A program made the translations under genes and the position numbers. From a virus, in IMG/VR virus record IMGVR_UViG_3300046167_000870: a DNA stretch of 64,000 nt; one strand, 5' to 3'. Shown in pieces: positions 43,502 to 63,956 of the stretch; position 1 is the stretch's first letter; each line of letters begins with the position of its first letter. The notes under the pieces were generated by a model. It was not told where the DNA came from. It was given only the letters and a program-made list of their open reading frames with translations, and made no database searches.

Positions 43502-44762
43502 TTAATTTTTATTATTTAATATATAATTTTTAGCATATAATACTCTCTTTCCAATGTCAACATTTACATTTTTGACATATTTAGAATGAACCCACCAATC
43601 CTCATATGGGCTATTTTCATCAGGAGAAATATTTTCTGCTACTAAAACATAACCTGCTTCAGTAAGTAATTGTTGAGATTTGCTTTTATAACTTTTAGTA
43701 TTATCACAATAGTAATCATGTTCATATGTAATAACTCCAAATTCTAATTTATCAAATGGAATTCTTTCTAATGTTCTATATGTGTTATATGCAGGATCAA
43801 CATCTAATTGTAAGTAATCTATTTGACGAGTTCCAATATAATTATCTGCAATATCTAGATAGTCAGCTGATAATGAATTTTGATCTAAAATTGTATCAAG
43901 ACTTCTTCTTTTCTTCCATTCCTCTATAAATTCTTTAGATATGTCTAAAGATGCTCCTTTCCATCCCCACTGTGTAAGTAAAAGTGTATTATTACCATAT
44001 GTCGGATGTCCTGCTCCTATTTCTAAATAAGTACCATTTTTCTTTCCATTTAAAGCAGTTAAAGCAAATAAATCCTGATAACATTGTGAATAATTTTCTT
44101 CAACTAAATTTGCACCTTTAAATTTTTTAGATAATGTTTTATAATGTGTTTTTTTATAAGGTAATAAATCATGCCATGTTGTTAATACAGGTCTTTCTTT
44201 AATTAAATCAAAATTAATACAATTATTTATAACAAGTTCTCTATGGTTTTCATCTACATAAGGATCATTATATAATTCTAACCATAATTTATGTGATTTA
44301 TCTCTTTGACCTATATACCAACATACAAATGCTTTTTGAAATTTTAATTCCCAATCACCTTTATAACCAATATCATATGGTAAAGGTTCTTTTCCTATAT
44401 GTTGTAGACCTAAATCAGCATATAAATTAGCAGTTTTCCAATCCTTTCTACTACTATACCATTTACATAAAAATAAATAACCTTCAGGTCTAGTAGGGTA
44501 AATATGCTATAGCCGTTTCTAATTGACCTTTTTCATAATTTGCTCTACGTGTAGTTTTATTTAGTTGGAGCCATGTTTTTAAAATACCATTATAAGCTAG
44601 TATAGGATCAGTATCATGTGTTAATTCTGATGCTCTTAAAAAATAAGATAACGCAGCCGCTCCTTGACCTATGTTTTCATACTCTTGACCTAATTCAGCA
44701 TTTATATAAGGATCTAAAGGATCCTGAATGTATTTGTGTAAATATTCTTTTAGTCTTTCCAT
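43502..44762 (-). CDS. TPR-like + FkbM-family SAM methyltransferase (one +1 indel at 44496-44498; 3' part missing from ORF track)
   Basis: Manual translation 44495->43502 is open and Met-free: NYSQCYQDLF...GTYLEIGAGHP..GNNT...GWKG...IDYLQLDVDP...VITYEHD...PYEDWWV. Span 1261 = 3n+1. Confidence 0.85.
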
Positions 44763-45778
44763 TATAATCCGTTATTTGTCCATGACCTTCTATTTAACCA
44801 CCCTAAATTGTCTAATAATTTAGTTGGCATTTTTAATGCATAAGCAGCATTATCTTGATAACCATATGTAATAATAAAATTATCATCTTTTAAAGCTAAA
44901 CCACAAGCAAATTCAATTTTAGCTGCCATGAATTTAAATGGTTCTGATACTGCTTCTAAATTCCAATCTTTATCCCATATAACAAACCTATGATAATAGT
45001 GAGCATCTTTATGTTGTCCTGGGTTGTGATAAAAATCTACTTCATGTGTTACACATATTCTACTTCCATTTTTCCAAGGTATAACTTGTGACCCTCCTCT
45101 TAATTCAAAAGGAACTTCAGCATTATATTCTTTTGTTATAACAATTTCACTTGTTTTATTAACTGGGTCTATTTTAGCTATTTCTAGGTTATTAGTCCAT
45201 TTGATAAAATGCATTGGCATGTCTAATATAGGCATCCAATTTTTTTCTAAATAAGTTGGTTTTGGTGGTTCAATTCTATCTCTAGTTACTTCTTCACATA
45301 CATTACTAGTCCAATTTATTTCACATAACTCCATTCTACCTTCACCATCAGGTTTTACATCACGTCTTACACCACAAGCATATAATATATCATTCCATCT
45401 AAATACCCTAACATCTTCTAATCCAATAAAAGTCCATACAGGTTTGATATCATGTTTTGAAGTATCAATTTTTTGATGTGTTTTAACTTCTAAAGTATCA
45501 GGGTCTAATTTACATAAATAATTTCCTGTTCTTAATACAACATCATCTTCAGGGTTTAAATAAGCTAAACAACCCCAAACACAATAAAAGTTTTGGTTAA
45601 ATTCACTATGATATAAAGAATAATGTACGTGTCTAATATTAGCTATAATATCATCATTATCATCTATAAAAACCGATACATTACATAAACCGGTACCATC
45701 AGTTAAGTCTCCTGGGATAATGAGAGGTGCTATAGAACCACCATTATCTATTACTAATTTTGCTAAATTATCTATCAT
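44762..45778 (-). CDS. Five-bladed beta-propeller carbohydrate enzyme (GH130/GT91/GT108-like)
   Basis: GLEDVRVF, EKNWMP, RGGSQ, IEFACGL, TYGYQD. Confidence 0.7.
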   Translation of the reverse strand: MIDNLAKLVIDNGGSIAPLIIPGDLTDGTGLCNVSVFIDDNDDIIANIRHVHYSLYHSEFNQNFYCVWGCLAYLNPEDDVVLRTGNYLCKLDPDTLEVKTHQKIDTSKHDIKPVWTFIGLEDVRVFRWNDILYACGVRRDVKPDGEGRMELCEINWTSNVCEEVTRDRIEPPKPTYLEKNWMPILDMPMHFIKWTNNLEIAKIDPVNKTSEIVITKEYNAEVPFELRGGSQVIPWKNGSRICVTHEVDFYHNPGQHKDAHYYHRFVIWDKDWNLEAVSEPFKFMAAKIEFACGLALKDDNFIITYGYQDNAAYALKMPTKLLDNLGWLNRRSWTNNGL

Positions 45779-45781
45779 ATA

Positions 45782-46375
45782 TTATTTATAATGTCCTCCA
45801 CCTAACCATAATACGAAAGATTTTCTGGTTCCCCTAGTAACTGGTGTAACTCTGTGCATCATATAAGAAGGGAATAAAAACACACAACCAGCATTTCTTT
45901 CAGCTTGTATAAAAGGACCGTTCATACTTCCACCTCTAAATAATTCTAAATTACCACCTTCATATTCATCTGGTTCTGATAGTTGAACTGTAATAGATAC
46001 TTTTCTTAATGATAATTCTCTTGGACCTATATCAGCATGCCAATCATAATGACCAGCAGGTGCATGATATTCGGTATATTGAATTTGTTCTGGTATTTGG
46101 TGTAAATCAAATTTCCAAAGTGAATTATTAGCTTCTATAGCCATATTTGCTAGTTTTTCATATAACCAAAACCAATCATCATTTTGAGGAATCCACTTAA
46201 TATTAGATTTTCTATTTGTATCTTTATCACCAGCAGCGGTTGATGCTATATGCCAGGGTAAACTTTTAATGTTTTTAGATATTTTTTTTAATTCATCTTT
46301 ACTAAATCCCTCTTTATAATAGAAGTAATTTTGTGAATCTGTTTGTTCTTGTTCAAATGTATAGTTTAAGTTCAT
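45782..46375 (-). CDS. 2OG-Fe(II) oxygenase (prolyl/lysyl-hydroxylase-like)
   Basis: HYDWHAD, RKVSITVQLS..YEGG, FPSYMMHRVTPVTRGTRKS. Confidence 0.9.
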   Translation of the reverse strand: MNLNYTFEQEQTDSQNYFYYKEGFSKDELKKISKNIKSLPWHIASTAAGDKDTNRKSNIKWIPQNDDWFWLYEKLANMAIEANNSLWKFDLHQIPEQIQYTEYHAPAGHYDWHADIGPRELSLRKVSITVQLSEPDEYEGGNLELFRGGSMNGPFIQAERNAGCVFLFPSYMMHRVTPVTRGTRKSFVLWLGGGHYK

Positions 46376-47265
46376 TATAGATCTTTTATATTAAATATAT
46401 TTTCGGTTTTTGTATATGGGATATTATCCAATGGTTCTTGTAGGTTATAACCACTATAGCAATTCATATCTGTATGTAATTCATAAGGATTAGCTTTAAT
46501 ATTCTCATGAATTTCATAACCTAAAACATCAGGATTTGTTGTTATCCAGCATACAGTAGAAGGTAATTCTAAAGCTGCTGCCATATGTTGTGCAAAACTA
46601 TCTATTAATATCCTTTTATCTGCCTGTAATAATAATGAAATTATACCTCGTAAGTTAAATTCTGCTGGTATTGCTCCTTCATATGATTGAGGTTGACTAG
46701 AATGTTTAATATAATAAATAGTATAATCATCTTTATACTTTTCTATTAATTTTTTAGTTAATTTTAATGGTAAATCTCTTGACCAATTATAATATAAAGG
46801 TTTTGTATAATAACTAATTAGCTGGATATGTTCATTTTTTGCTAATGCTCCACCATGAGGATGGATTACTAATATAGGTTTTTTATTTATTAGCTTTACA
46901 GGAGTATTTTTTTCTTCTTCACTAAGATATAATTTAGGTTTTTCACCATTATATTCTAAATCATACATTTTAGCCCAAATTTCATATATGCTAGCCTTAC
47001 TGCTTATGTAATCGGGTTCATTATAGACCTCCTTTACTAATATTAAACAATTATCTAAATTATTATGTACATATTTTTCTAAAATATCAACTCTTCCTTC
47101 AAAATCAGTTAATATATCTAAGTGGGGATTATTAAAGAATATATCTTTAGCATCTGATATTACTATTATTTTATCATTAGGATATTTCTTTCTAAGTAAT
47201 TCAAGTATTACAGTAGCAATAATATTTTTACCTACCCCTCCGCTTATTTCAAAAACTATATTCAT
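46375..47265 (-). CDS. GT-B glycosyltransferase (GT9-like)
   Basis: GGVGKNI, NNPH, LIDSFAQHMAAALELPSTVCW. Confidence 0.75.
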   Translation of the reverse strand: MNIVFEISGGVGKNIIATVILELLRKKYPNDKIIVISDAKDIFFNNPHLDILTDFEGRVDILEKYVHNNLDNCLILVKEVYNEPDYISSKASIYEIWAKMYDLEYNGEKPKLYLSEEEKNTPVKLINKKPILVIHPHGGALAKNEHIQLISYYTKPLYYNWSRDLPLKLTKKLIEKYKDDYTIYYIKHSSQPQSYEGAIPAEFNLRGIISLLLQADKRILIDSFAQHMAAALELPSTVCWITTNPDVLGYEIHENIKANPYELHTDMNCYSGYNLQEPLDNIPYTKTENIFNIKDL

Positions 47266-47939
47266 GCTTGTATATTAAAATTAATTACTGCTCTTTGTTT
47301 TTTACCATAAAATGGCTCTACAGAATGTACTATATCATGCGGCCAAATTAATAACATTCCTGCTTTAGGCCTAACAAAATGTTTTTCTCCTCTAATATGA
47401 AAAGCAAATACACCACTATAAGGGTGATCTGGGTGAGGTTCTCCATCACTTAAATAATAACCACCTGAATACATTTTAGGTTTTTCTTCTTCATATTGCC
47501 ATCTGTTATGATTATGAGCATTATGTCCTCTACCTTCCGTTGGTTCATAATATTGTAACCAACTTTCTGTTACTGTACCTTCTTCACCTACTAATTCTTT
47601 AAAACCAGCTAATATTCTTCGTTTAATAACATCTACATCTGAGTTTTCTACGTCTAAAAAATCATTAGGTTTAACATAAAATCTACTTCCTATAGGTTGT
47701 AACTCATGACTTTCAATCCATTCTTCTCGCCTATCATAATTAACTTCATATGTAGAATACCTTTCACTATCCCATCTATCAACTAATTCTTGACCCATTC
47801 TCCTTTGTTCTGCATCTAATATTCGTAAACCAAAATCATAAGCTTTATTAGTTACAATATCATCTTCATATATCCTTTTGTAAACAGGGATAGGTGCTAA
47901 ATTAAATATATTTTCCTTATTCGTTGGATGAAATATCAT
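47262..47939 (-). CDS. 2OG-Fe(II) oxygenase (TIGR02466-like)
   Basis: HNAHNH, SGGYYL, PKAGMLLIWP..HSVEP..RAVINFN. Confidence 0.85.
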   Translation of the reverse strand: MIFHPTNKENIFNLAPIPVYKRIYEDDIVTNKAYDFGLRILDAEQRRMGQELVDRWDSERYSTYEVNYDRREEWIESHELQPIGSRFYVKPNDFLDVENSDVDVIKRRILAGFKELVGEEGTVTESWLQYYEPTEGRGHNAHNHNRWQYEEEKPKMYSGGYYLSDGEPHPDHPYSGVFAFHIRGEKHFVRPKAGMLLIWPHDIVHSVEPFYGKKQRAVINFNIQA

Positions 47940-48513
47940 AGTTTTCTAAAGTTGTTATATCCGAGTCTTCACCTGGGTTATGACCAAAATACGAAATATT
48001 TGCCTGGTCTCCACGGAAATCTTTAGATTTTCTTAAATCCCAAAACGCCCAATCTAAACCTCGTCTTAATTTAGAGACATTTTCTACATAATCAATCATC
48101 TTTTTAGCACCTTCAGGCCATACAATATAAGCTGCTACACTAGGTTCATTTGGAATAAACCAAAAGGCATCTAAATCTGTTACTGATGCTAATGTCTCAA
48201 AATAATTTTCTGGTGTTTTTTCGTCTTCATTTAAGAATACATCATCTTCAAATATAAAGAATGGTAAATCTTGTTTTGAACATTCTTCTAATAAATTTAA
48301 ATGCATATATTGAGCACAAACCATAGATGGGATATGTATTCCATATTTTTCGTAATCATTGCCTTTAATAAATTCTTTATCAAATTCTGTTAGTTCATAA
48401 GTTTTTCCATCTATTCCATCACAAAATTCAAAATCTATATGTTGGAACATATGAGCTATTTTTTTACGTCTGTCTTCACGTTTTGGAAGAGATATTACTT
48501 TTAATTTATACAT
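47917..48513 (-). CDS. GT25-family glycosyltransferase
   Basis: VISLPKREDRR, DGIDG, C..MH..L, IFEDD, AYIVWPEGAKK. Confidence 0.85.
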   Translation of the reverse strand: MYKLKVISLPKREDRRKKIAHMFQHIDFEFCDGIDGKTYELTEFDKEFIKGNDYEKYGIHIPSMVCAQYMHLNLLEECSKQDLPFFIFEDDVFLNEDEKTPENYFETLASVTDLDAFWFIPNEPSVAAYIVWPEGAKKMIDYVENVSKLRRGLDWAFWDLRKSKDFRGDQANISYFGHNPGEDSDITTLENYDISSNE

Positions 48514-49288
48514 GCTCTAAATAGGGTTTATAGTTAATTTTATTTTTTATATATTTATTAAATCTTTTTTGTGTTACTGATATAGTATAATTTTGATATT
48601 TTAATTCTTCATCTGATACACCTAATACATAATCAGGTTGGTATTCATTTATATATTCTTCTAGTGAACAATTAGCATATTTCCACATTGCAAATTCTTC
48701 TACTAATCCTTTTATATCATTTTCTTCTACTATTTTAAGTAAATCTTTACCTAAATCTTTATTTCTAGAATAAACACAACCAAAGTTAGGAATGATTAAA
48801 GCATCTTGCCATACCCAATGATAATGTTGTATTTGTGATTCTAATGTTGATAAATCATCAATTAAATTAAAATAAGTTTCATCATAATGTAAAATTGGGT
48901 GATGGTCAGGTATTGCTTCTAGTAATGCAAACATAGGTTCTTTATAATGAGCATATAAAGGGATTTGAGTTTCCTTTTGCCTCAGTAAATTATAAAAATC
49001 TTTATCTAATGGTTTTAAAATAAGACAATCCCAATCTAACATTAATACTTCTCCCCAATGTTTTAGAGCTATATCTAATACTTGTAATTTTTTCCCATAT
49101 ATGTTATTACCTGAGTAATTATTATCTCCCATAGCAACACAAGCGTATCCTCTTGATTCTAATTCCTCTTTATTTTTATCACCCCAAACATATACTATTT
49201 CATTATTATATAAAGGTTTTATTGGAACATCTTCCCATTTATCTGAGTCATTACCCCACCAACTTCTTATTATTTTTATATTAGACAT
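48506..49288 (-). CDS. Putative GT-A nucleotide-sugar transferase (paralog A)
   Basis: GEVLMLDWDC DxD motif, PNFG, EEFA, terminal YLEHV. Confidence 0.6.
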   Translation of the reverse strand: MSNIKIIRSWWGNDSDKWEDVPIKPLYNNEIVYVWGDKNKEELESRGYACVAMGDNNYSGNNIYGKKLQVLDIALKHWGEVLMLDWDCLILKPLDKDFYNLLRQKETQIPLYAHYKEPMFALLEAIPDHHPILHYDETYFNLIDDLSTLESQIQHYHWVWQDALIIPNFGCVYSRNKDLGKDLLKIVEENDIKGLVEEFAMWKYANCSLEEYINEYQPDYVLGVSDEELKYQNYTISVTQKRFNKYIKNKINYKPYLEHV

Positions 49289-50039
49289 GCTCGAAATAAT
49301 TAGTTATATCAACTTTAGTATCTAACCATTTACTAAATTTTCTTGATAGTTTATGTATTCTAGTATCATATATTATCATTTGATCTGATCTACCTTTTAC
49401 TACTCGAGGAACATATTTTTCAATATATTCTTCTAAAGTACAATCAACATAAATTAAAGTAGCAAATTCATCTACTACACTATTTAAATTATGTTCTAAT
49501 GCTATATCAACTAATTTTTTACCAAATGATTTATCTCTACAATATACAAAACCAAAATTAGGAGCTATTACTCCCTCTTCCCATTCCCATCCATACTTAT
49601 TCATTCCTACTTCTAAATCTTCTAATTCTCTTAATAATGAGGGACTTTGATCTTTTACTAACATCTCCAATACAGCATTTTTAGTATCTTTATGTTGAAT
49701 GTATAATGGTATTTGTATTGGTTTTTCTTTTAAAGAATCATAAAAGTTTTTATCAAATGGTTTTAATATAAAACAATCCCAATCTAATAATAATACTTCA
49801 CCAAATTCTTGTAATGCTAAATCTAAAGCTTGTAATTTTCTTCCAAATTTATTATATCCTTTTTTACCATCAAATTTTGTATCTTTTACTAATTTAGCTT
49901 CATATCCCAGTTCTTGAATAAACCAAAATGATTCATAATCAAAACAGTATACTACTTCTTGTTCAGGATATAATGGTATTCTGGGTATTTCATGGTTTAC
50001 ATTACCACCCCATAATACTCTAATTATTTTTATTTTCAT
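49281..50039 (-). CDS. Putative GT-A nucleotide-sugar transferase (paralog B)
   Basis: GEVLLLDWDC, PNFG, DEFA, YFEHV; clear paralog of 48506-49288. Confidence 0.6.
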   Translation of the reverse strand: MKIKIIRVLWGGNVNHEIPRIPLYPEQEVVYCFDYESFWFIQELGYEAKLVKDTKFDGKKGYNKFGRKLQALDLALQEFGEVLLLDWDCFILKPFDKNFYDSLKEKPIQIPLYIQHKDTKNAVLEMLVKDQSPSLLRELEDLEVGMNKYGWEWEEGVIAPNFGFVYCRDKSFGKKLVDIALEHNLNSVVDEFATLIYVDCTLEEYIEKYVPRVVKGRSDQMIIYDTRIHKLSRKFSKWLDTKVDITNYFEHV

Positions 50040-50997
50040 GATATTTGTCCCAATGTTTTTGCCATCTTACATCTTTTGTAAAAACTTCTCCAACCTTAAA
50101 ATCGTCAACTAATTCTCTAAACCATTTTTCTGTTTTTAAATGCATAGTGTTAATTTTATCTAACCAAATATGTTTAAAATTAACTTCTTTTTCTAAATCT
50201 GGGTTTTCAGGTAAGTACCATTTTTCTGCTTTACCTTTATATCTTGTATGAGGTTCAACACAATTATGATGTGATAATGATATTTTATTAGTTAAAGTAT
50301 TTACATGATAATCGTTTTCTCTAATAATATGACCTAAAATACCTTGATCAGTTAATAACCAAAACCATTCAGGTATATTTTCACCATTAGTTGTAACTAA
50401 TTTTTTATGCCATTGATGATATTCTTTTAATAGTTCTATGTTATTAAAACATAAGAATGATGTATTAGGTGACCAATCATCTACATTATAATTTTCAATC
50501 CAAGGTATATGAGTAATTTCTCTTTCAAATTTTTCTTTATCAAAGTAATAATAACCTCTACCTATTTCCCAATGTGCTATCGTTAAATCGTTAGTTCTAA
50601 CATATTCAGGTAATTTTTCTTTGATTATCATATCATTATCAAGGAATACAAAAGGTTCTGTTTGATTTGCTAAACATTTTATTTTACCACTTGTCCAAAA
50701 ATAAGCTGCATCTACTTTTGATTTTGAATAACTATTTAAAAAATCTATATCTACCTCATCATATAGATCTAATATTTTAAATCTATGATAAAAAGCTGCT
50801 CCTACAGAATCAGTATATAATTTAATAGGACCATTATGTCTTTGCCAATTTACTATAGATAATACTGTATATAGAATTTGATGATCAGTCATATTGTATG
50901 TGTCTGATTCTAGTCCCCTCATGGATTCAAAACCATGGCCTCTTAACCTCTCTTTATGAAAGTAAGGTTTAGTCCAATTAACGTGTATAGCCTTCAT
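50020..50997 (-). CDS. Putative GT-A transferase (DUF6734-like)
   Basis: LYTD, FWTSGKIK..QTEPFVFLDND, DQGIL, FKHIW. Confidence 0.6.
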   Translation of the reverse strand: MKAIHVNWTKPYFHKERLRGHGFESMRGLESDTYNMTDHQILYTVLSIVNWQRHNGPIKLYTDSVGAAFYHRFKILDLYDEVDIDFLNSYSKSKVDAAYFWTSGKIKCLANQTEPFVFLDNDMIIKEKLPEYVRTNDLTIAHWEIGRGYYYFDKEKFEREITHIPWIENYNVDDWSPNTSFLCFNNIELLKEYHQWHKKLVTTNGENIPEWFWLLTDQGILGHIIRENDYHVNTLTNKISLSHHNCVEPHTRYKGKAEKWYLPENPDLEKEVNFKHIWLDKINTMHLKTEKWFRELVDDFKVGEVFTKDVRWQKHWDKYHENKNN

Positions 50998-51852
50998 TTA
51001 GTCTTTTTGTTTTATTATCCAGTCATCATATAAACTCCATTTATCTTTTTGTATAGAGTTAATACACCTAAATAAATACATCATTTCAGTATGATCTATT
51101 TCTTTTTTTAACACACCATAATGCTTGTAATATAATGAAGATTCTTTGAGATTCCAAATACCTCCATCATCTACTATAGTACCATAATCTACATCTTTAC
51201 AATTAAAAACGTTTTTGGATAATGTTTTATGTGGGATATTTTCTTTATATAACATTTGTTTTAACATAAACTGTTCAGACAATATCATATAATTAGTATC
51301 CTTTACTCCCATTGAAGTAAATTCTTTATGATTTTGTAAAGTTTGTTTAGCGTATTTATTAGCAAATTTATAATCAGGAAGATAGAATAAAGATACATTT
51401 GCTGCTCTATCAATTATATAGTCAATTGGTGTTGTTAATCCTTTACAATATTTAGTATTTTCTTTAGGATACCAATTATCTGATAATTCGTTATATGTAA
51501 ATAGAACATTATCATTTAAATGTTCATCTATGTTTTTAAATATTAAAAAATCATGATCAACAATTAGTATTGGGTTTGTTGCTTTACTTATTATTTTTGT
51601 TTTACTACTTGACCAAAATACTTCCCTATCAATTTCATCATCATACTTTAAAGGTTTTATTTCATCAAATAAATCAAGTAATGGTGTTCCTTTATAATAA
51701 TCTTTAGTAAGATCATCAGCATATAGTACTGTTTTATGGTTAGGGTGATACCTTTTCCATAAACAGACGGATGCTGCTAATAGTAGTGTAAATTGTTTTG
51801 TATAAAAATCTTCAGAACGCTTAACGTTTTCAATTACCCATAATACTTCCAT
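50998..51852 (-). CDS. Putative GT-A transferase (DUF6734-like paralog)
   Basis: LYADD, FWSSSKTK..PILIVDHD, SEQFML, YKHYG; likely start ATG 51852. Confidence 0.6.
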   Translation of the reverse strand: MEVLWVIENVKRSEDFYTKQFTLLLAASVCLWKRYHPNHKTVLYADDLTKDYYKGTPLLDLFDEIKPLKYDDEIDREVFWSSSKTKIISKATNPILIVDHDFLIFKNIDEHLNDNVLFTYNELSDNWYPKENTKYCKGLTTPIDYIIDRAANVSLFYLPDYKFANKYAKQTLQNHKEFTSMGVKDTNYMILSEQFMLKQMLYKENIPHKTLSKNVFNCKDVDYGTIVDDGGIWNLKESSLYYKHYGVLKKEIDHTEMMYLFRCINSIQKDKWSLYDDWIIKQKD

Positions 51853-52628: not shown

Positions 52629-53171
52629 CTATATTAGGTCTTTTACATTACCTTCACCAAAAATATCCTTATAATGATTTTTAACTTTTTCATAAGTGTA
52701 CTCAAAAAGGCTACCAGTAATTATATTAATGTTTATTTTAGATTTAGTTACCATTTCACTTCCAGTAGTAATTGTTTCTATAGATTCTGTACGATAAGCT
52801 GATATTTCGTTACCATCATCATCAAAATCAATATATTCTACTGTTTGATCTTCCCATGAAGAAGAATATGTTACTTGTTCTACTTGTACACTTTCAGTAA
52901 GTGGAAATTCTAATGGATAAGAATTATTATGAATTTCATCATCAAATGTATAGTTAGGAGATAACATACCAGAAGCATCTAGTCCTATATAATCTTCTTT
53001 ATATACTGGGTGTCCTGATGAAGATTCTTTACTTACATAATGTTGTGTATTTGCAAGTATATCTCCTGTTGTTTTATGTAATACGTAATTTTCGATCCTA
53101 ACATAGAAGCTACTTACTTCTCTATTAGCTCCTCCGTTTTCCGTAATTGAACCTGTAACTATAAATCCCAT
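52629..53171 (-). CDS. Hypothetical fibre-associated protein
   Basis: 180-aa ORF translationally coupled to the collagen gene. Confidence 0.65.
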   Translation of the reverse strand: MGFIVTGSITENGGANREVSSFYVRIENYVLHKTTGDILANTQHYVSKESSSGHPVYKEDYIGLDASGMLSPNYTFDDEIHNNSYPLEFPLTESVQVEQVTYSSSWEDQTVEYIDFDDDGNEISAYRTESIETITTGSEMVTKSKININIITGSLFEYTYEKVKNHYKDIFGEGNVKDLI

Positions 53172-56100: not shown

Positions 56101-57068
56101 GTATTACCTGTAGCACCTTTTTGTCCATCTGTACCTTGAGCACCAGTTGGTCCTGTATTACCTACAGCACCTTGAGCACCTGTTGGACCAGTTGGTCCTG
56201 TAGCTCCTATAGCACCTTGAGCACCTGTAGTACCTACTGTACCTTGAGAACCTGTTGGCCCTGTTGGACCATCTGCACCTTGTGCACCAGTTGGTCCTGT
56301 TGGTCCTACTGCTCCTTTTTGTCCTTGGTTACCTACTGAACCTTGAGCACCATCTGCTCCTTGAGCTCCAGTTGGTCCTGTTGGACCTGTTGGTCCTACT
56401 ACACCTTTTTGACCAGTTGTACCTTGAGTACCTGTTGTTCCTTGTGGACCAGTAGGTCCTGTAGCACCTGTAGCTCCTTTTTGTCCATTTGTACCTTGAG
56501 CACCAACATCACCTTGATCTCCAGTAGCACCTTTAGCACCAGTTGAACCTGTTGGTCCTGTTGGTCCTGTTGCTCCTTTAGATCCTTGTGGTCCTGTAGC
56601 ACCTTGTGGTCCTACTACACCTTTAGCACCTGTAGAACCTTGTGTTCCGTCAGCACCTTGTGCACCTGTAGGTCCAGTTAAGGATAAATCTGTTCTATAT
56701 TTTATATCACCCGATGTATTTGAAACTAATATTCGAGTTTCTGATGTTCCATTTGATAAATTGTTTATATGTAAATTACTACCTGTAAGTGAAGTTGAAG
56801 CAACGATATTACTACCTGTAATAAACCCTGCAGAGGTAATATTTCCAATTACATTAAGGCCACCTGCTGGATACCAAAATAGTTTACTTTGTGAGTCTTT
56901 ATATAAAGTATCAAAATTATCTCCCGAAGATGTATCAAAAAATGGAATTTGATAAGCTTTAGAGGGTGATGATCCTGAACCTGTGGGACGTACGAAATAC
57001 TTCCCTGCTTTAATTTTGTTTAAATCTGCATCACTACCGGATACAACTACTTTTTTCCAATTTGGCAT
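53171..57068 (-). CDS. Collagen-like fibre protein 2 (~1,298 aa; one +1 indel at 55962-55964) with S74 chaperone
   Basis: Long G-X-Y tracts (GPT, GAT, GSQ, KGQKG), one internal globular domain, SDERLKD...GVIAQQV...[17 protein letters not shown]; span 3898 = 3n+1. Confidence 0.88.
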
Positions 57069-57131: not shown

Positions 57132-57175
57132 TCATACATATGAATAATATACGGAAAAACAAATAAAAACTCAAA
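57132..57175 (-). promoter_or_regulatory. Tandem host-type promoter and late-motif variant
   Basis: TTTGAG-N15-CCGTATATTA (57145-57175), then ATATGTATGA (57132-57141). Confidence 0.5.
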
Positions 57176-57180
57176 TAATT

Positions 57181-58363
57181 TTATAATTGGAACCAGCCTG
57201 TTGGTTTAACATAAGGCGACATACATGATCCAGTTCTTTCTACATTATGATTAATATTATTAGGGTCAATTGGGGAGAGAGAACGAGATACCATTAATTG
57301 AGTATACTGGTAAGTACTATTATCTTGATAAGTAAATGGTGATACATAATGTATTTCTCGTGGGAAATCTGATGGTGATAAGGTTACTACGCTTCCTTCA
57401 ATATTACCAGCTCTATTTACTATAAATGATCTAACATAGTCATTTGCAGAATTAACATAAAAGAAAGAACTTGAAGCCCATTGAAATGGATAACTATAAT
57501 TAGACTGAGATATATTTACAACTGTACAATTTACGAATGATTTATTTGCAAAAGGATAAGGGTCAATACCTAACTCTTCCTCTATACAAAAAGAAGAGGT
57601 TGATGTTGCTGATGCCAAATCATAGGGTCTAGATAAATGGAAAATAGTACAACAAGTCCACATAGGATCATTTTCTGCAGTAAAATCAACTTCTCTGTGG
57701 AATTGATATAAATGAGAACCAGTATAACCAAAAGATATTTGATCAACATTTTGAGTTAATGATTGGGTTACTGCTGCTATTCGTCTAACAGTTCCTAGTA
57801 CTGGTGTTTAAAGTGGTTATATCAAAATTTGAATTTAATTGATATTGTGTTATGTTTGATAATGCTGATCCTTGTCTAACCCCGAATTGTACCACAGAAC
57901 CAGTATCTGGTACTTGTATTGATTGTATAGCTCCAAATGCAGGTGATAATCCAGATCCTAATGTAGCTGCATTTAATGTTAACGATGCTGTATTATTAGT
58001 TGGACTTTGCCAAAGTTCAAAACTACCAAGATTTGGAGCTGTAGAATCTGAGGAAGAATACATATACTGATAAACTAATTGTTTATATGGAGCACCATCT
58101 GAAAAAGATGAGGTACCCCACCAACTAGTGTACATATAATGAACCAAACTAGCGTCACCACCATCATAACGTGAATTTATTGCTTGTTGTTGGTGATATA
58201 ATCCACTATAATTTTTAAAACTTTGATAATTTGGGAATTGTGCTGGGGTAGCAGTTGCAAAATCTCCTAATTCTAATTGACAAGTAAGTACAGGCCAATC
58301 AGCTTCTGATGTAACTTGCCAAGTTCCTCCTTGCATTACCCTAAAGAAATTTTGATTTGCCAT
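57181..58363 (-). CDS. Beta-rich hypothetical fibre-associated protein (~393 aa; one +1 indel near 57794)
   Basis: ORFs 57785..58363 and 57181..57663 join through ...TSTRTVRRIAAVTQSLTQNVDQISFG...; span 1183 = 3n+1. Confidence 0.65.
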
Positions 58364-61300
58364 TATTTACCTTTTAATTGATCTATTTGGATTTGTTGTT
58401 CCTTAATAGCTTCAATTAATAAGGCAACAATTTTTTCATACCTAACAGCTTTATATCCATTTTCTCTTGTAGTTACGATTTCAGGTAAAATTTCTTCTAT
58501 TTCTTGAGCTATTACTCCAATATCATGTCCTTCGTTACTGTGTAACCAAATCTTTTGTTCCTCAGTTAATGGTCTCCAATCAAACTCAACACCACTTACT
58601 TGTTTTATTTTTTCTAAAGCATTAGAAATAGGTATAATATTATCTTTAAATCTTTTATCTGATGATGCAAATGCTACAACGTCATTTGTAGCTGTAATTT
58701 TACCTACTGTTGCTGGGACTACTGCTGATCCAACATGAAGTCCACCAGCTGATACTGTTAAATGATCTCCATTGAATACTAAATTAGCTTCACCATTAAT
58801 ACCTGCTGCACCTGTTGCTGTTACAACTCTATCATTTGAACCATTTGTAAATGCTGTTACTGCACCACCTGGACCTGATGGTCCATCTGCACCTTGAGCT
58901 CCACCTGCTCCTTGAGGTCCTGCTGCTGTTGAATCTGCACCTGTAGCACCTTGAGCACCTTGTGTTGAATTATCTGCTCCATCTGCACCTTGTGGTCCAT
59001 CTGCTCCTTGAGTAGAGTTATCTGCTCCATCTGCACCTTGTGGTCCATCTGCACCTTGAGTTCCTGTACCATCTATACCTTGTTTACCTTGAGCACCCTG
59101 AGTAGAATTATCTGCACCTGGTTCTCCTTTTCCACCTGTTGCTCCTTGAGTTGAATTATCAGCTCCTGTTGCACCTTGTGGTCCTGCTCCTGTTGCACCT
59201 TGTGGTCCTGCTCCTGTTGCACCTTGTGGTCCTGCACCTGTTGCACCTTGTGGTCCTGCTCCTGTTGTACCTTGAGTACCATTTGTACCTTGAGTACCAT
59301 TTGTACCTTGAGTACCACTTGCACCTTGTGGTCCTGTTCCTCCTGGTGCACCTTTAGTACCTAAACTAGCTGTAGAACCAACTGTGTAGAAGAAATCTGT
59401 GCCATCACAATATATTCCAATTACAACTTGTGAACTTAAAGTAGTAGGCATTGTAAATGCACTACCATTTAAATATACATTACTACCCGCTGAAGGTGTA
59501 AATGTTACTGTTCTGGCTGTAGATGCACTTTGTTTTATTCTTATAACACCTGTATCACCAGCTTCCCAATGATTTGCTCTATCAAGTGTAATTGTTAAAT
59601 TACCTGTTAATGCTGCTACTGTTGCATTTGAACCATCTTTAGGATTAAATGCTACTGTACCTGTTGTTAATAATGCTTGTTGATCAATTGTTAACTTACC
59701 ATTTAAGTATGATGTAGATCCATCAAATGTAAAATTAGGTTCACCAACTAATCCTCCACTACCATCTGCTGTTACTAATCTATCACTTACATCACCTGAT
59801 AAATTAGCTACTCCTGTTGCACCTTTTTGTCCTTTAGCTCCATTATTAGTAAACTGTATTCTTACACTCTCACCATTAGAAAAAGTACCAGCAGCTTGTA
59901 CATCTGCAGCACTAACATCTAATAATGCTCTTGTTGCATTAATAGTATTAATACTATAATCAGCAACTGTAATAATATCACCTGAACTTTCACCAGTAAT
60001 TATTAATTGTGATTGTTTTGACCATAAATTATTGTGATTAACACCATCGGCATCTTCTAATGCTAATGAAATTTGAGTAGCTGATCCAATTGTAGTATTA
60101 TTAAACCTAATTGCACCCGCAGCACCAGCCATATTTGTACTGGTTTCATAATCATAATTTAATCCTGCATTATTTCCAGGAGCACCTTTTGTACCTGCGG
60201 GTCCTGTTCCTCCATCATCACCTACAACACTAAAAGATAAATATAATTTATCCCCATTAGAAAAAGGTGTTGTTGAAGAATAAGCTTCATCTGCTATAGT
60301 AAAAGTTTTTATATTAGTACCATCACTTATATTTGTTATTTTAAATAATATAAATTTACTAGAATCACCCTTTAATGAAACTTGCATATATGCTTTAGCA
60401 GTTGTATTACTTACAGCATCTATAGCATCATAAAAAGTAGCCCAATCATCTCCATTAACATCTGTATCTCTTACATAAGCGCTAGTAGCATTTGCTATAG
60501 TAGAATTACTAAATCTTATATTACCATTTCCTACTGAAGAGTCAGGAGTGGTAGTTTGATCGTAGGTATATGGAGCTGTTATTGCACCTGAACTACCAAT
60601 TGTTCCTTGAGTTCCAACTCCTGTTATACCTTGAGTACCTTGGGCTCCTTGAGTTGAATTATCTGGTCCAGTAGCACCTTGAGCACCTTGAGTTGAATTA
60701 TCAGCACCATCTGTTCCTTGGGCTCCTTGTGTAGAGTTATCTGGTCCTATAGTACCTTGTACACCTTGTGCTCCCTGAGTAGAATTATCTGCTCCGTCTG
60801 CACCTTGGGCTCCTTGTGTAGAGTTATCTGGTCCTGTTGTACCCTGAGCACCTTGAGTTGAATTGTCTGGTCCAGTAGCACCTTGAGCACCTTGTGTTGA
60901 ATTATCTGGTCCAGTAGCACCTTGTGCTCCTTGAGTTGAGTTATCTGGTCCAGTTAAACCTTGAGTACCTTGAGCTCCTTGAGTTGAGTTATCTGCACCA
61001 TCTGCTCCTTGTGCTCCTTGTGCTCCAGTATCACCTTTATCACCTGTTACTTGGAATGAAACAACTATATCATCTGTATTGGCAAATGGGCTAGTTGCTG
61101 ATGATGCTTCATTTGCTACTGTTAAAATATACCAAGCGTTTGTATCTTGACCTGCTACAGCACTTATTTGGAATAATAAGAAATCATTTGTATTAGACTT
61201 TTCTGATATTCTAACATGACCTTTTATTGTAGATGAAGCATTAGCAATTGTTGTCATAAATGAAACAATACTATTACTACTATCATCTGTAGCATCAATA

Positions 61301-63956
61301 TAAATTGCAGTTGCAGTATTTTGATTTGTCTGGTTTAATTGTAATATACCCGTTCCTGGATCTGAAGGTACACCTGGTACTGTTGTACTAAATGTATAAT
61401 CAAATGAAGCACCTCCAAAATTACCATCTGCACCTGTATCACCTTTAGCTCCTGTTGCACCTTGTGTTGAATTATCTGGGACCTGTTAAACCTTGAGTAC
61501 CTTGAGCACCCTGAGTTGAATTATCTGGTCCTGTAGCACCCTGTGCCCCCTGAGTAGAATTATCTGCTCCATCTGCACCTTGAGCACCTTGAGTTGAATT
61601 GTCAGGACCTGTAGTACCTTGAGCACCCTTGTGTTGAATTATCTGGCCCTATTGTACCTTGTACACCTTGTGCTCCTTGTGTAGAATTATCTGCACCATC
61701 TGCACCTTGAGCACCTTGAGTTGAATTGTCTGGTCCAGTTGCTCCTTGAGCACCTTGAGTAGAATTATCAGCACCATCTGTTCCTTGGGCTCCTTGAGTT
61801 GAATTATCTGGTCCTGTTAAACCTTGTATACCCTGAGCACCTTGTGTAGAATTATCTGCACCATCTGCACCTTGAGCACCTTTAGCTCCTGTTGCACCTT
61901 GTGTTGAATTATCTGGTCCAGTTGCTCCTTGAGCACCTTGTGTTGAATTATCTGGTCCAGTAGCACCTTGTGCTCCAGTATCACCTTTAGCACCTGATTC
62001 TATAAATGATATTGCTATATCTGAAGTATTACCAAATGGATTGGCTGCACTACTAGCTGTAACACTACCAACACAAGTAATTATATTACTAGTTGGTCCT
62101 GATACACTTGTAATTGAAAATGTTATAAATTCAGAATAATCGTTTCTATCTCTAATTGTTAATATACCTGGAGCTGTTGGTGTTGGAATACCATTACCAT
62201 CAGCATCTCTATAATCAAATACAATTTGAGTAGCTAAATTTGTTTGTGAGTTATTTGTTCTTACTATTCCAGTTGCTGGGTCTCCACTAGTTGCTGTACT
62301 AAAGTTATAAGAATAGGTATTTGCTCCATCAGCTCCAATTGAACCTTTAGCACCACCTACACCTTGACTACCTACATTACCTTCTTCACCTTGTATACCT
62401 GTGTTACCTTGTGCACCAGTATCTCCTTGAGCACCAGTATCTCCTTGGGCACCTGTAGCTCCTTGAGTTCCAACTCCTGTTATACCTTGTGTACCTTGTG
62501 TACCATCTGTACCTTGAGTTCCATCTGTACCTTGTGCTCCAGTTGCTCCTTGAATACCTTGTTCACCTTTTGTTCCATCTCCACCTTGAACACCATCTTG
62601 ACCTTTTTGGCCTTTTTCACCTTTTGTACCTGTACCACCTTGAGTACCAATATCACCTTGTACTCCATCAGTACCTTGAGTACCTTGAGCACCATCTGCT
62701 CCTTGAGTACCATTTGTTCCTTGAGTACCATCTGTACCTTGTGATCCAGTATCACCTTGTGCTCCTACTTCACCTTTTTGTCCTTTTGTACCTTTTTCAC
62801 CATTTAAACCTTGAATACCAGTTTCACCTTGTGTTCCTGTTGAACCTTGTGATCCAGTATCACCTTGTGTTCCATCTGTACCTTGAGTACCTGTAGGTCC
62901 TTGAGGACCAGTTACACCTTGTGTACCAAATCCTGTTATACCTTGTATACCTGTATTACCTTGTGCACCTTGAGATCCTATTCCTTCTGCACCTTTTTGT
63001 CCTTTTTGTCCTTTATCACCTGTAGTGACAAAAGAAACTAATATATCTTCTGAGTTGGTAAATGGAGAATCTGTTGAGAAAGCTTGGTATGCTATTGTGA
63101 TTGACCACCAACCAGTATTATCATCTAAGTCCGTTATACTATATAATATAAATTGCGTAGCATCCGTTCTATTTGCCACTTTAACGTGACCTTTAACAGC
63201 TGACGTGACTGCAGCAATTGATGATAAAAATGACTGAATACTATTGCCATCATCATCTTCAACATCGATGTACATTTTAGTAGCACCTTTTTGTCCTGCT
63301 GCTGATCCTGCTGCTGAATTTAATTGTAATTTACCTGTTCCTGGGTCTGCTGGAGTTCCTGGAACTGTAGAATCAAAAGTATAATCAAATGAAGCACCTC
63401 CAAAATTACCATCTGTACCTTGTGTACCATCTGTACCCTGAGTTCCATCTGTACCTTGTGCTCCTGTTAAACCTTGAATACCTGTTTGTCCTTGGGCACC
63501 TGTTCCACCTTGAACACCTGCACCACCTGGACCACCTGTAGCACCTTGAAGACCTGGTTCTCCTTTATTACCTAAATCACCACCAATACCTTGAGCACCT
63601 GTAGCACCTTGAGTTCCTACACCTGTAGTACCTTGAGCACCATCTGCACCTTGTGTTCCGTCTGTTCCTTGAGTTCCGTCTGTTCCTTGGGTTCCATCTG
63701 TACCTTGAGTACCACCTGCACCTTGTGTTCCATTTGCTCCTTGAGCACCTGTTGCACCTTGAGGTCCTGTATCTTTATTTACAAAGCTTAAATTACCAGA
63801 GCCATCGGTTTGAATAACCTGTGTATTTGCTCCATCTGAGGATGGATATATTAAACCACTTGCTGTTAAACCTGTCTTTATATCGGCTTGTGAAGACGTT
63901 ACAGACCTTAAGTCAGCGTCAGATCCGCTTATAATTATTTCTCTCCAATTTGCCAT
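58363..63956 (-). CDS. Collagen-like fibre protein 1 (~1,863 aa; +1 indels at 61478-61480 and 61626-61628) with S74 chaperone
   Basis: G-X-Y tracts alternate with five related globular domains; SDKRFKDN...GVIAQEIEE...[15 protein letters not shown]; span 5594 = 3n+2. Confidence 0.88.
58960..61960 (-). repeat. About 25 copies of a G-[PA]-D-N-S-T-Q-G unit (mostly 39-nt period) in three blocks
   Basis: Manual count is 12 (61440-61960), 9 (60640-61000) and 4 (58960-59165). Confidence 0.85.

What the first reader, a model, noticed from the sequence alone, without database searches (positions are those of the whole stretch)
43502..63956. Phage-encoded collagen-fibre maturation system: giant collagen fibres upstream of, and apparently co-transcribed with, hydroxylase, glycosyltransferase and methyltransferase genes
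Seen: two collagen-like S74-chaperoned fibres (~1,863 and ~1,298 aa) and a third S74 protein. They run, with overlapping or abutting stop/start codons and no internal promoter motif found between 57068 and 43502, into ten modification genes. These are four DxD GT-A-like proteins (two paralog pairs), a GT25, a GT9-like GT-B, two different 2OG-Fe(II) oxygenases, a GH130/GT91-like propeller and a TPR-FkbM methyltransferase. The collagen Y position is dominated by Thr, Gln, Lys and Asp (GPT, GAT, KGQKG); Pro is nearly always in X. Established: animal collagen galactosyltransferases are GT25, collagen hydroxylases are 2OG oxygenases, mimivirus modifies its own collagens, and Bacillus BclA GPT-collagen is O-glycosylated. 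Inference: the phage hydroxylates (Lys, Asp/Asn or X-Pro rather than Y-Pro), glycosylates and O-methyl-caps its own fibres, giving a stabilised or shielded glyco-collagen. Such genes are seen near fibre genes in marine myoviruses, but I know of no described phage pathway of this kind.
Basis: partly seen in the sequence, partly recalled or inferred. Interest (0 to 1): 0.88.

Follow-up and report, generated by a model that had tools for sequence, protein, structure and literature searches.

The report
Phage collagen tail-fibre tailoring enzyme cassette
An uncultured T4-like phage places twelve tightly packed genes, ten of them sugar-adding, hydroxylating or methylating enzymes, straight after its collagen-like tail fibres, and one hydroxylase in the set sits beside collagen-like genes in many other phages, so at least part of the set probably modifies the phage's own fibres, although nothing has been tested at the bench.

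Summary
The genes are real, but the window as given breaks both giant fibres and the TPR-methyltransferase gene with four single-base G/C insertions. The 1,863 and 1,298 aa lengths appear only after frame correction.

Family calls mostly hold:
- two DUF6734 DxD proteins;
- two GT8/GT24-like GT-A paralogues (AF2 model plus Foldseek);
- a GT25 and two 2OG oxygenases;
- a GH130/GT108-like propeller, not GT91;
- weak GT9 and weak FkbM signals.

The cassette is two modules.
- **Module B (GT9-like, ox1, propeller, TPR-MT):** it travels with collagen fibres. The PKHD/P4H-like oxygenase ox1 had a collagen ORF within 10 kb in 45 of 47 related viral loci. Non-ox1 control loci had 2 of 23.
- **Module A (DUF6734 x2, GT-A x2, GT25, ox2):** it is a movable block. 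It also occurs beside non-collagen fibres and tape-measure genes.

Lysine is absent from most ox1-linked collagens, so X-position proline is the likelier target.

My reading is a fibre-tailoring system (about 0.5). Host-surface remodelling, which is how the literature reads such clusters, is the main rival. This scan has already noted similar cassettes on other DNA. I class it as a new variant of a known kind, interest 0.62.

The parts
63969..63980 (-). Late-promoter-like motif ATATTTATAACC. It is a one-mismatch copy of ATATTTATAAYA and ends 13 nt upstream of the fibre 1 ATG.
   Evidence: Fourteen exact copies lie elsewhere in the window. All are intergenic and upstream of structural genes such as portal and sheath. 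None lies on the minus strand between 40276 and 63968.
58363..63956 (-). Fibre 1. It is 1,863 aa once two single-base insertions (61626-61628, 61478-61480) are read through. It has collagen-like runs, 25 DNSTQG interruptions and a C-terminal S74 chaperone.
   Evidence: Pfam Collagen and Peptidase_S74; frames and indels.
57181..58363 (-). Two ORFs of unknown function between the fibres (57785-58363 and 57181-57663). They may be one gene split by a fifth frameshift.
   Evidence: The second frame is open back to about 57790. There is no Pfam hit and no homologue in the fetched loci.
53171..57068 (-). Fibre 2. It is about 1,298 aa once one extra G (55962-55964) is read through. It has 302 Gly-X-Y triplets, 54 G-x-K-G sites and a C-terminal S74 chaperone.
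   Evidence: Pfam Collagen 2e-71 and S74 1e-11; intact 1,313-aa homologue in L002; composition.
52629..53171 (-). Conserved 180-aa fibre-associated protein of unknown family.
   Evidence: Homologues follow the fibre gene in L001-L009, L079, L102 and L122. No Pfam or PHROG hit.
51830..52627 (-). Small S/T/N/G/Y-rich protein with a C-terminal S74 chaperone domain (the third S74 protein).
   Evidence: Pfam Peptidase_S74 4.8e-9 at residues 188-235.
50998..51876 (-). D2: DUF6734-like GT-A candidate with a DxD motif (module A).
   Evidence: Pfam DUF6734 1.2e-4, below the cut-off. It aligns with the D1 family, and the DxD and a C-terminal His are invariant.
50020..50997 (-). D1: DUF6734 protein with invariant DxD (D120, D122) (module A).
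   Evidence: Pfam DUF6734 2.8e-16; alignments A2 and A3; 16 viral and 23 bacterial loci.
49281..50039 (-). pA2: paralogue of pA1, a GT-A fold with an LDWD motif (module A).
   Evidence: 41% identical to pA1. D-W-D is invariant in 16 sequences.
48506..49288 (-). pA1: GT8/GT24-like retaining-type GT-A glycosyltransferase (module A).
   Evidence: AF2 model with pLDDT 89. Foldseek top hits are the UGGT catalytic domain, XXYLT1 and glycogenin, E about 1e-5, TM 0.39-0.49.
47917..48513 (-). GT25-family glycosyltransferase, 198 aa (module A).
   Evidence: Pfam PF01755 3.2e-15, 57 bits against a cut-off of 24. Profile hits to mimivirus R655, a bacterial GT25 and procollagen galactosyltransferase 1. EDD motif invariant.
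47262..47939 (-). ox2: 2OG-Fe(II) oxygenase of the PF13759/TIGR02466 type (module A).
   Evidence: Pfam 2.7e-6, phrog_81 1.4e-13. It always travels with D1 and pA and lies next to GT25 in L062.
46375..47265 (-). GTB: candidate GT9-like GT-B glycosyltransferase (module B).
   Evidence: Two collinear sub-threshold hits: Pfam Glyco_transf_9 0.016 at residues 200-248 and PDB 3tov 0.083 at residues 10-58. It travels with ox1 in L079, L102 and L122.
45782..46375 (-). ox1: PKHD/P4H-like 2OG-Fe(II) dioxygenase, the collagen-linked signature gene (module B).
   Evidence: Pfam PF13640 3.9e-13. H113, D115, H174 and R184 are invariant in 23 sequences. Nearest PDB chains are PKHD-type hydroxylases 3dkq and PiuC; a prolyl 4-hydroxylase scores 0.0056. 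Linkage to collagen.
44762..45778 (-). prop: GH130/GT108-like five-bladed beta-propeller, a candidate beta-mannoside synthase or phosphorylase (module B).
   Evidence: AF2 model with pLDDT 80. Foldseek top hits are Leishmania MPT-1, MPT-2 and MPT-4 and beta-1,2-mannoside phosphorylases, E 2e-9 to 4e-8, TM up to 0.58. The Atlas gives a GH130 hint.
43502..44762 (-). TPR plus class-I methyltransferase. It is split in this window by one extra C at 44496-44498 (module B).
   Evidence: Frame analysis. Four relatives lack the extra C. There are only weak Methyltransf_23 and FkbM hits; the FkbM hit is 0.0036, in the L009 orthologue, which is fused to prop.

Best explanation
This is a tail-fibre tailoring system built from two modules and expressed with the late fibre genes.

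**Module B (GT9-like GTB, ox1, GH130/GT108-like propeller, TPR-methyltransferase).** This is the collagen-linked set. I infer that ox1 hydroxylates the collagen-like stalks of the fibres. The most likely target is proline in the X position of G-P-T, G-P-Q or G-P-S triplets. The glycosyltransferase and the propeller would then add sugars, and the methyltransferase would cap them.

**Module A (two DUF6734 DxD proteins, two GT8/GT24-like GT-A paralogues, GT25 and ox2).** This is a movable block of one hydroxylase plus several transferases. It has been inserted between the fibre genes and module B. It probably extends or diversifies an O-linked glycan on a virion tail protein. In this phage that protein is presumably the fibres, on Y-position Thr or on hydroxylated residues.

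**Likely benefit.** Glycosylation or hydroxylation would stabilise Thr-rich, Hyp-free triple helices. It could also shield the fibres or tune them for host recognition.

**Shown here:** gene content, folds and motifs, operon-like packing, synteny in relatives, and the statistical linkage of ox1 to collagen genes. **Inferred:** every substrate and every chemical step.
For: 1. **Operon-like packing.** Twelve genes from fibre 2 to the methyltransferase abut or overlap. The only late-type promoter motif in 40276-64000 lies before fibre 1.
2. **Conserved order.** The gene order is the same in L001-L005 and L016-L018, with collagen fibres directly upstream.
3. **ox1 is linked to collagen.**
   - 45 of 47 related viral loci with at least 6 kb of upstream sequence carry a collagen ORF within 10 kb. 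That is 30 of 32 clusters at 95% ox1 identity and 16 of 18 at 75%.
   - The median distance is 3.2 kb, and 16 loci are within 1 kb.
   - Non-ox1 control loci score 2 of 23. Fisher p = 1.5e-13, not corrected for phylogeny.
   - A second set of loci gave 13 of 15.
   - In five long contigs of 99-271 kb the nearest collagen ORF was always within 6 kb of ox1.
4. **Other lineages repeat the pattern with unrelated enzymes.** DUF6445, GT2, GT17 or GT4, or a GT25-2OG fusion, lie between or beside the collagen genes and ox1. That fusion family has 477 clusters.
5. **Sister phages keep module B with collagen fibres.** L079 and L102 show fibres followed by GTB-ox1-prop-TPR/MT.
6. **A protein-binding domain is present.** In L009 prop, TPR and MT are fused into one ORF.
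7. **The enzymes look soluble and intact.** No hydrophobic 19-mer reaches transmembrane level. The catalytic motifs are conserved.
8. **Bacterial DUF6734 genes are not in the sampled polysaccharide loci.** They lie beside arrays of DUF2589 protein genes or a radical-SAM/SPASM gene.
9. **Chemistry precedent.** Ac-(Gly-Pro-Thr)10 folds into a triple helix only when the Thr is galactosylated, and TGP triplets are over-represented in viral collagens (PMC11923368). Mimivirus L230 hydroxylates and glucosylates its own collagen (PMC4691112).
Against: - No chemical evidence exists for any modification.
- Module A and the GT25 occur without collagen. They sit beside a non-collagen S74 fibre in L006-L008, directly after tape-measure-like genes in L010-L015, and elsewhere in L047-L067.
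- The linkage of ox1 to collagen could partly reflect both lying in the hypervariable fibre region, where accessory genes collect (PMC7029224).
- The nearest solved relatives of ox1 are PKHD-type hydroxylases (PiuC, Sbal_3634). I found no defined substrate for them in the papers searched. A characterised prolyl 4-hydroxylase scores only 0.0056.
- Cyanophage homologues of 43% identity or less lie beside the uvsW helicase, not beside fibres.
- Four ox1 loci have no collagen nearby, but those contigs are fragments.
- The cassette is followed on the same strand by a GIY-YIG-like gene and the primase, so an early or middle promoter hidden inside coding sequence cannot be excluded.
- The fibres and the methyltransferase are frameshifted in this assembly.
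Confidence: 0.5

Rival explanations
1. The enzymes remodel the host cell surface (LPS, O-antigen or capsule) during infection. That would block superinfection or stop progeny sticking to debris. The genes sit among the fibre genes only because that region is hypervariable.
For: This is the published reading of glycosyltransferase clusters in the host recognition cluster of pelagimyophages and cyanomyophages (PMC7029224). It is also the published reading of GT, 2OG-oxygenase and methyltransferase clusters in jumbo cyanophages (PMC7824862). GT25, GT9 and GT8 are classic LPS-core families (Pfam descriptions). Module A and the GT25 occur without collagen.
Against: No transmembrane segment, flippase, polymerase or sugar-nucleotide synthesis gene is present. 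The cassette is tightly coupled to late fibre genes with no late motif of its own. The specific linkage of ox1 to collagen is not expected under this model. The bacterial DUF6734 contexts sampled are not polysaccharide loci.
Confidence: 0.22
2. Only module B, or ox1 alone, acts on collagen fibres. Module A is an unrelated mobile cassette that modifies a different virion protein or a non-protein target.
For: Module A is missing from sister phages that have collagen fibres (L079, L102, L122). It is present beside non-collagen fibres and tape-measure genes. Module B and ox1 track collagen.
Against: In this phage and five related contig lineages module A is inserted exactly between the fibre genes and module B, with overlapping reading frames. 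Other lineages also place glycosyltransferases between collagen genes and ox1.
Confidence: 0.2
3. The cassette hypermodifies phage DNA (base hydroxylation followed by glycosylation or methylation) or makes a small-molecule secondary metabolite.
For: Phage TET/JBP oxygenases combined with glycosyltransferases are known to hypermodify DNA (my own knowledge; Pyle et al. 2024 is listed among the references of PMC12619734). A secondary-metabolite reading is offered for cyanophage clusters in PMC7824862.
Against: Both oxygenases are PF13640 or PF13759 types, not TET/JBP. No nucleotide-metabolism or carrier-protein genes lie in the block. The position inside the fibre operon and the link to collagen are not explained.
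Confidence: 0.06

Closest known systems
Mimivirus L230, a bifunctional lysyl hydroxylase and glucosyltransferase acting on the virus's own collagen-like proteins (Luther et al. 2011, as described in PMC4691112)
   Same: A virus encodes both collagen-like structural proteins and a 2OG oxygenase plus glycosyltransferase to modify them. A GT25-2OG fusion of the same logic occurs in related phage contigs (L136).
   Different: Here the enzymes are separate genes of other families (PKHD/P4H-like, PF13759, DUF6734, GT8-like, GH130-like). Lysine is not a plausible general target. The host is a bacterium. Nothing has been shown biochemically.
Bacillus BclA, the exosporium collagen-like glycoprotein (Daubenspeck et al. 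2004, cited in PMC11923368)
   Same: Both have GPT-rich, hydroxyproline-free collagen triplets with Thr in the Y position. In BclA the Thr carries O-linked oligosaccharides with methylated sugars, made by cytoplasmic enzymes.
   Different: BclA needs no hydroxylase. Its glycosyltransferases and sugar pathway are unrelated to the genes here as far as tested. BclA is a spore protein, not a virion protein.
Mycobacteriophage virion glycosylation (Freeman et al. 2023, PMC10527164, cited in PMC12619734)
   Same: Phage-encoded glycosyltransferase genes lie next to structural genes and decorate virion proteins.
   Different: In that system the targets are capsid and tail-tube proteins of actinophages. 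There is no collagen, no oxygenase, and the GT sets differ. I know that paper only from its citation and my own memory of it.
Glycosyltransferase islands in the host recognition cluster of pelagimyophages and cyanomyophages (PMC7029224; PMC7824862)
   Same: The genomic setting is the same: T4-like aquatic phages carrying GTs, 2OG oxygenases and methyltransferases among tail-fibre genes, some of which contain collagen repeats.
   Different: Those papers read the enzymes as host LPS or capsule modifiers. They do not report a link between an oxygenase subfamily and collagen genes.
Animal collagen maturation (prolyl and lysyl hydroxylases, GT25 COLGALT1) and Riftia cuticle collagen with galactosylated Thr (Mann 1996 and Bann 2000, cited in PMC11923368)
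   Same: The same enzyme superfamilies are involved (2OG oxygenase, GT25). The structural logic is also the same: hydroxylation or glycosylation stabilises the triple helix.
   Different: Pro sits in X rather than Y in the phage collagens. There is no peptide-substrate-binding domain and no ER. Similarity of the GT25 to COLGALT1 is marginal (E 0.006).

Membership tests
Collagen triple-helix repeat (PF01391) fibre with Peptidase_S74 intramolecular chaperone | Long Gly-X-Y runs plus a C-terminal S74 domain in one polypeptide | tested here: met
   Pfam Collagen 2e-71 (53171-56143), 1e-38 and 3e-45. S74 1e-11 and 2e-16. One polypeptide results only if the frameshifts are read through.
2OG-Fe(II) oxygenase, PF13640 (ox1) | Pfam score above the curated cut-off, and an HxD...H iron triad plus a 2OG-binding Arg | tested here: met
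   50.6 bits against a cut-off of 27. H113, D115, H174 and R184 are invariant in 23 sequences.
Collagen prolyl 4-hydroxylase (characterised P4H enzymes) | Closer to characterised P4Hs than to other 2OG oxygenases; hydroxylates X-Pro-Gly peptides | tested here: inconclusive
   The best PDB relatives are PKHD-type hydroxylases 3dkq and PiuC (3e-8 to 9e-7). A prolyl 4-hydroxylase (6iuq) scores only 0.0056. Activity cannot be tested here.
Collagen lysyl hydroxylase logic (target X-Lys-Gly) | The substrate collagens carry Lys in the Y position | tested here: not met
   This is met in this window (K_Y 17.5% in fibre 2). It is not met across ox1-linked collagens, where median K_Y is 0.6% and most have zero.
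CAZy GT25 / Pfam PF01755 | Pfam score above the cut-off; acidic DxD-type motif | tested here: met
   57 bits against a cut-off of 24, but only profile positions 5-107 of 199 are matched. EDD is invariant. PDB profile hits: R655 3e-4, bacterial GT25 1e-3, COLGALT1 6e-3.
GT8/GT24-like retaining GT-A (pA1, pA2) | GT-A fold with DxD; sequence membership in Pfam GT8 | tested here: inconclusive
   The fold criterion is met: Foldseek finds UGGT, XXYLT1 and glycogenin at E about 1e-5, TM 0.39-0.49, and D-W-D is invariant. No Pfam, NCBIfam or PHROG family is matched.
DUF6734 (PF20508) | Pfam score above the cut-off | tested here: met
   D1 scores 60.2 bits against a cut-off of 27. D2 scores 22.1 bits, below the cut-off, but aligns with D1 with a shared DxD. 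The function of the family is unknown, and no paper in the library mentions it.
GH130 / GT108 beta-propeller mannoside phosphorylase or transferase | Five-bladed propeller fold nearest to GH130/GT108 structures; Pfam PF04041 | tested here: inconclusive
   The fold criterion is met: top Foldseek hits are all GH130 or Leishmania MPT, E 2e-9 to 1e-7. There is no Pfam hit. The Atlas shows PF04041 on 32% of one related viral cluster. Catalytic residues were not checked.
GT9 heptosyltransferase-like GT-B | Pfam PF01075 above the cut-off | tested here: not met
   14.9 bits against a cut-off of 22. PDB 3tov scores 0.083. The two weak hits are collinear, so this remains a lead only.
FkbM-type methyltransferase (PF05050) | Pfam above the cut-off; SAM motif I | tested here: not met
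   The window copy has no FkbM hit. The L009 orthologue scores 17.9 bits against a cut-off of 22.7. A motif-I-like LEIGAG is visible in the translation.
TET/JBP DNA base hydroxylase | Pfam TET/JBP domain | tested here: not met
   Only PF13640 and PF13759 are matched.

The most novel reading that the evidence does not exclude
Aquatic phages encode their own collagen maturation pathway. A PKHD/P4H-like dioxygenase hydroxylates X-position proline of G-P-T/Q/S triplets, and exchangeable glycosyltransferase and methyltransferase modules O-glycosylate the fibres. This would be how Thr-rich, otherwise unstable viral triple helices fold and survive. It would be a widespread virion post-translational modification system, with hundreds of ox1 relatives in IMG/VR.
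Probability: 0.38. Interest if true: 0.82.

Novelty: new variant of a known kind. Interest (0 to 1): 0.62.

Why it matters
Thr-rich Gly-Pro-Thr collagens are common in bacteria and viruses, yet the model peptide does not fold unless it is glycosylated (PMC11923368). How natural viral collagens are stabilised is still open.

This locus, and the cross-lineage link between one oxygenase subfamily and collagen genes, supply concrete candidate enzymes. These can be synthesised and tested on fibre fragments.

If confirmed, the result would:
- extend virus-encoded collagen modification from giant viruses to phages;
- add a second kind of phage virion glycosylation;
- change the default reading of glycosyltransferase islands in phage fibre regions from host-surface remodelling to self-decoration, with consequences for host-range prediction;
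- offer enzymes for making stable recombinant collagens.

Tried and rejected
- **Cultured phages.** Megablast of the cassette against cultured phages found no match. tblastn of D1 found none either. The cassette is therefore known only from metagenomic contigs.
- **Read-level check of the frameshifts.** Whether the indels are real or sequencing errors stays open.
- **No whole genome is held for this window**.
- **Alignment A2 (D1 plus D2)** was too divergent for a genome scan. A3 was used instead.
- **Relationship between the pA and DUF6734 families.** hhalign found none.
- **PDB sequence searches.** The propeller profile gave only spurious ubiquitin hits. The D1 profile gave nothing useful.
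- **'GT91-like' for the propeller.** Rejected in favour of GH130/GT108-like.
- **ox1 as a lysyl hydroxylase.** Rejected, because most ox1-linked collagens lack Lys.
- **DNSTQG repeats in other loci.** None found.
- **Homologues of the two ORFs between the fibres.** None found.
- **The exceptions with ox1 but no collagen.** Their contigs are fragments estimated 6-42% complete, so they are uninformative.
- **Context of the GT25-2OG fusion.** Mixed: beside collagen in L184 and L185, not in L186 and L187.
- **Literature searches.** They found no paper describing hydroxylation or glycosylation of phage collagen fibres. The library is incomplete.
- **Complex prediction** was not used, because enzyme-substrate pairs are a poor fit for that test.

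Full report
**What the window is.** All genes lie on the minus strand, and GC is about 30%, rising to 38-45% in the fibre genes. The major capsid protein (14226-15938) is 55% identical to that of Flavobacterium phage vB_FspM_immuto. Portal, sheath and primase genes are recognisable. This is therefore an uncultured T4-like myophage, probably of a Bacteroidota host. Megablast found nothing close among cultured phages.

**Checking the observation.**
- Two large proteins carry Collagen plus S74 domains, and there is a small third S74 protein.
- The sequence as given does not encode 1,863- and 1,298-aa proteins. Fibre 1 is broken by two single-base insertions (GGG 61626-61628, CCC 61478-61480). Fibre 2 is broken by one (GGG 55962-55964). 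The TPR-methyltransferase gene is broken by one (CCC 44496-44498).
- Relatives have intact genes: a 1,313-aa fibre and a single TPR-MT ORF in L002 and L003. Four relatives lack the extra C.
- All four indels lengthen a short G or C run. That looks like sequencing error, but I could not check reads.
- A fifth break may join 57785-58363 to 57181-57663.
- The stated collagen composition is correct. Such composition (Pro in X, Thr and Gln in Y) is typical of prokaryotic collagens (Rasmussen et al. 2003, cited in PMC11923368; the summary of it is my own recollection).

**Wiring of the genes.**
- From fibre 2 to the methyltransferase, twelve genes follow each other with gaps of 0-3 nt or overlaps of 1-47 nt.
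- I found a strong candidate late promoter, ATATTTATAAYA, on the coding strand. It has fourteen exact copies, all intergenic and 10-40 nt upstream of structural genes. A one-mismatch copy ends 13 nt upstream of the fibre 1 start codon. None lies between 40276 and 63968.
- Terminator-like hairpins are at chance level.
- This fits co-transcription with the fibres. It does not exclude promoters of another class inside coding sequence. The cassette is followed on the same strand by a GIY-YIG-like gene and the primase.

**The enzymes.**

| Gene | Result |
|---|---|
| D1 | Pfam DUF6734, 2.8e-16 |
| D2 | DUF6734 below cut-off; shares an invariant DxD and a C-terminal His with D1 |
| pA1, pA2 | No family hit; invariant LDWD; the pA1 model (pLDDT 89) matches UGGT, XXYLT1 and glycogenin, so a GT8/GT24-like GT-A |
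| GT25 | Pfam PF01755, 3e-15 |
| ox1 | PF13640, 4e-13; intact HxD...H...R; nearest solved chains are PKHD-type hydroxylases, with a prolyl 4-hydroxylase at 0.0056 |
| ox2 | PF13759/TIGR02466 type |
| Propeller | Model pLDDT 80; best matches are GH130 beta-1,2-mannoside phosphorylases and the Leishmania GDP-Man mannosyltransferases of the same fold |
| GTB | Only two collinear sub-threshold GT9 hits |
| TPR-MT | Only weak methyltransferase hits; FkbM 0.0036 in the L009 orthologue |

None of the proteins has a transmembrane-like segment.

**Relatives and the two-module structure.**
- D1 found 16 IMG/VR loci. A tblastn map showed the full gene order conserved in L001-L005 and L016-L018, with collagen fibres directly upstream.
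- The block D2-D1-pA-ox2 also occurs behind a 1,389-aa S74 fibre with no collagen (L006-L008). It also occurs directly after sheath, tube and tape-measure-like genes (L010-L015).
- GT25 homologues in L047-L067 have no collagen nearby.
- Sister phages L079, L102 and L122 (primase 71-76% identical) go from the fibres straight to GTB-ox1-prop-TPR/MT and lack the six-gene block.
- The cassette is therefore two modules. Module B is resident and fibre-linked. Module A is an inserted, mobile block.
- In L009 the propeller, TPR and methyltransferase are one 746-aa ORF. This ties those three functions together.

**The key result: ox1 tracks collagen.**
- ox1 has more than 506 relatives in viral contigs.
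- Among the 80 best, 47 loci have at least 6 kb of upstream sequence. Of these, 45 carry a collagen-like ORF (12 or more triplets) within 10 kb, nearly always upstream on the same strand. The median distance is 3.2 kb, and 16 are within 1 kb.
- By cluster, this is 30 of 32 at 95% ox1 identity and 16 of 18 at 75%.
- Non-ox1 control loci from the same searches score 2 of 23. Fisher p = 1.5e-13, not corrected for shared ancestry.
- A second scan centred on a distant member added 13 of 15.
- In five long contigs (99-271 kb) collagen ORFs lay only in one fibre cluster, apart from a second collagen ORF 120 kb away in G005. The nearest one was always within 6 kb of ox1.
- Many of these lineages have none of the other cassette genes. 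Instead they carry DUF6445, GT2, GT17 or GT4 genes between or beside the collagen genes and ox1. In L136 there is a GT25 fused to a 2OG oxygenase.
- That fusion is a large family of 477 clusters. Its own context is mixed.
- Homologues in cultured cyanophages are 43% identical or less and lie beside uvsW. The collagen link therefore belongs to a subfamily.

**Which residue is the target?** Across 50 ox1-linked collagen sets, Y-position Lys has a median of 0.6% and is often zero. Y-position Pro has a median of zero. X-position Pro has a median of 23% and is almost never absent. Y is filled by Thr, Ser or Gln. If ox1 acts on the collagen, X-position proline is the only hydroxylatable residue that fits nearly all cases. 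Thr and Ser need no hydroxylation to accept sugars. The chemistry is plausible. PMC11923368 reports that TGP triplets are over-represented in viruses. It also reports that Ac-(Gly-Pro-Thr)10 is a random coil unless its threonines are galactosylated.

**Comparison with what is known.**
- Mimivirus L230 hydroxylates and glucosylates viral collagen.
- BclA is a glycosylated GPT collagen.
- Mycobacteriophages glycosylate virions (reference seen).
- Papers on pelagimyophages and jumbo phages describe similar enzyme islands among fibre genes. They read them as host LPS or capsule modifiers.
- I found no paper that links a phage oxygenase subfamily to collagen fibres.
- Earlier notes of this scan report similar cassettes beside tail genes in other genomes, and one follow-up reached a similar reading. 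I treated those notes as leads only.

**Verdict.**
- **ox1 is linked to collagen fibres.** About 0.7, on my own judgement.
- **The whole cassette tailors the fibres.** About 0.5.
- **Main rival, host-surface remodelling.** About 0.2.

This is a new variant of a known kind of system, virus-encoded collagen or virion modification. It is worth a bench test.

Noticed in passing
window 4739-40275 (14 sites) and 63969-63980: ATATTTATAAYA on the coding strand is a candidate late promoter. All 14 exact copies are intergenic, 10-40 nt upstream of structural-gene starts. About 0.6 exact copies would be expected by chance from base composition (my estimate).
   Followed up: partly
window 44496-44498, 55962-55964, 61478-61480, 61626-61628: Four single-base insertions, each lengthening a G or C run to three, break three genes that are intact in relatives. 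This is a probable sequencing or assembly error, not verified against reads.
   Followed up: partly
window 58363-63956 (fibre 1): There are 25 copies of DNSTQG in a 13-residue period. Each copy shifts the Gly-X-Y register and carries an N-S-T sequon. The motif is absent from every fetched locus. It may not form a classical triple helix, and it could be a modification site.
   Followed up: partly
window 57181-58363: The frame of ORF 57181-57663 stays open upstream to about 57790, next to the stop of ORF 57785-58363. This may be a fifth frameshift in one roughly 390-aa gene of unknown function.
   Followed up: partly
L023, L025, L039 (Bacteroidales) and L020 (Streptomyces): Bacterial DUF6734 genes follow arrays of about five DUF2589 paralogues. 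In Streptomyces they form a tandem pair beside a radical-SAM/SPASM protein. This hints at protein or peptide substrates rather than polysaccharide ones.
   Followed up: partly
L136:11476-12831 and proteins P0001-P0120: GT25 fused to a 2OG oxygenase (OGFOD2-like or PF13640) is a large, mostly metagenomic family of 477 clusters. It is usually preceded by a GT4 gene. One member is on record on a 104-Mb NCBI contig.
   Followed up: partly
L009:7567-9804: The GH130-like propeller, the TPR and the methyltransferase are fused into one 746-aa ORF.
   Followed up: no
L098, L119, L120, L137: A DUF6445 protein recurs next to ox1 and GT2 genes downstream of collagen fibres in lineages that lack the window's cassette. 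Its function is unknown.
   Followed up: no
window 14165-14200: A GC-rich hairpin followed by a run of nine T lies directly upstream of a late-motif copy at 14153-14164, just after the capsid gene. This looks like a terminator-promoter junction.
   Followed up: no
window 42971-43456: A GIY-YIG-like gene (PHROG hits labelled 'NAD synthetase' and homing endonuclease) sits between the cassette and the primase. It is conserved at that spot in relatives.
   Followed up: no
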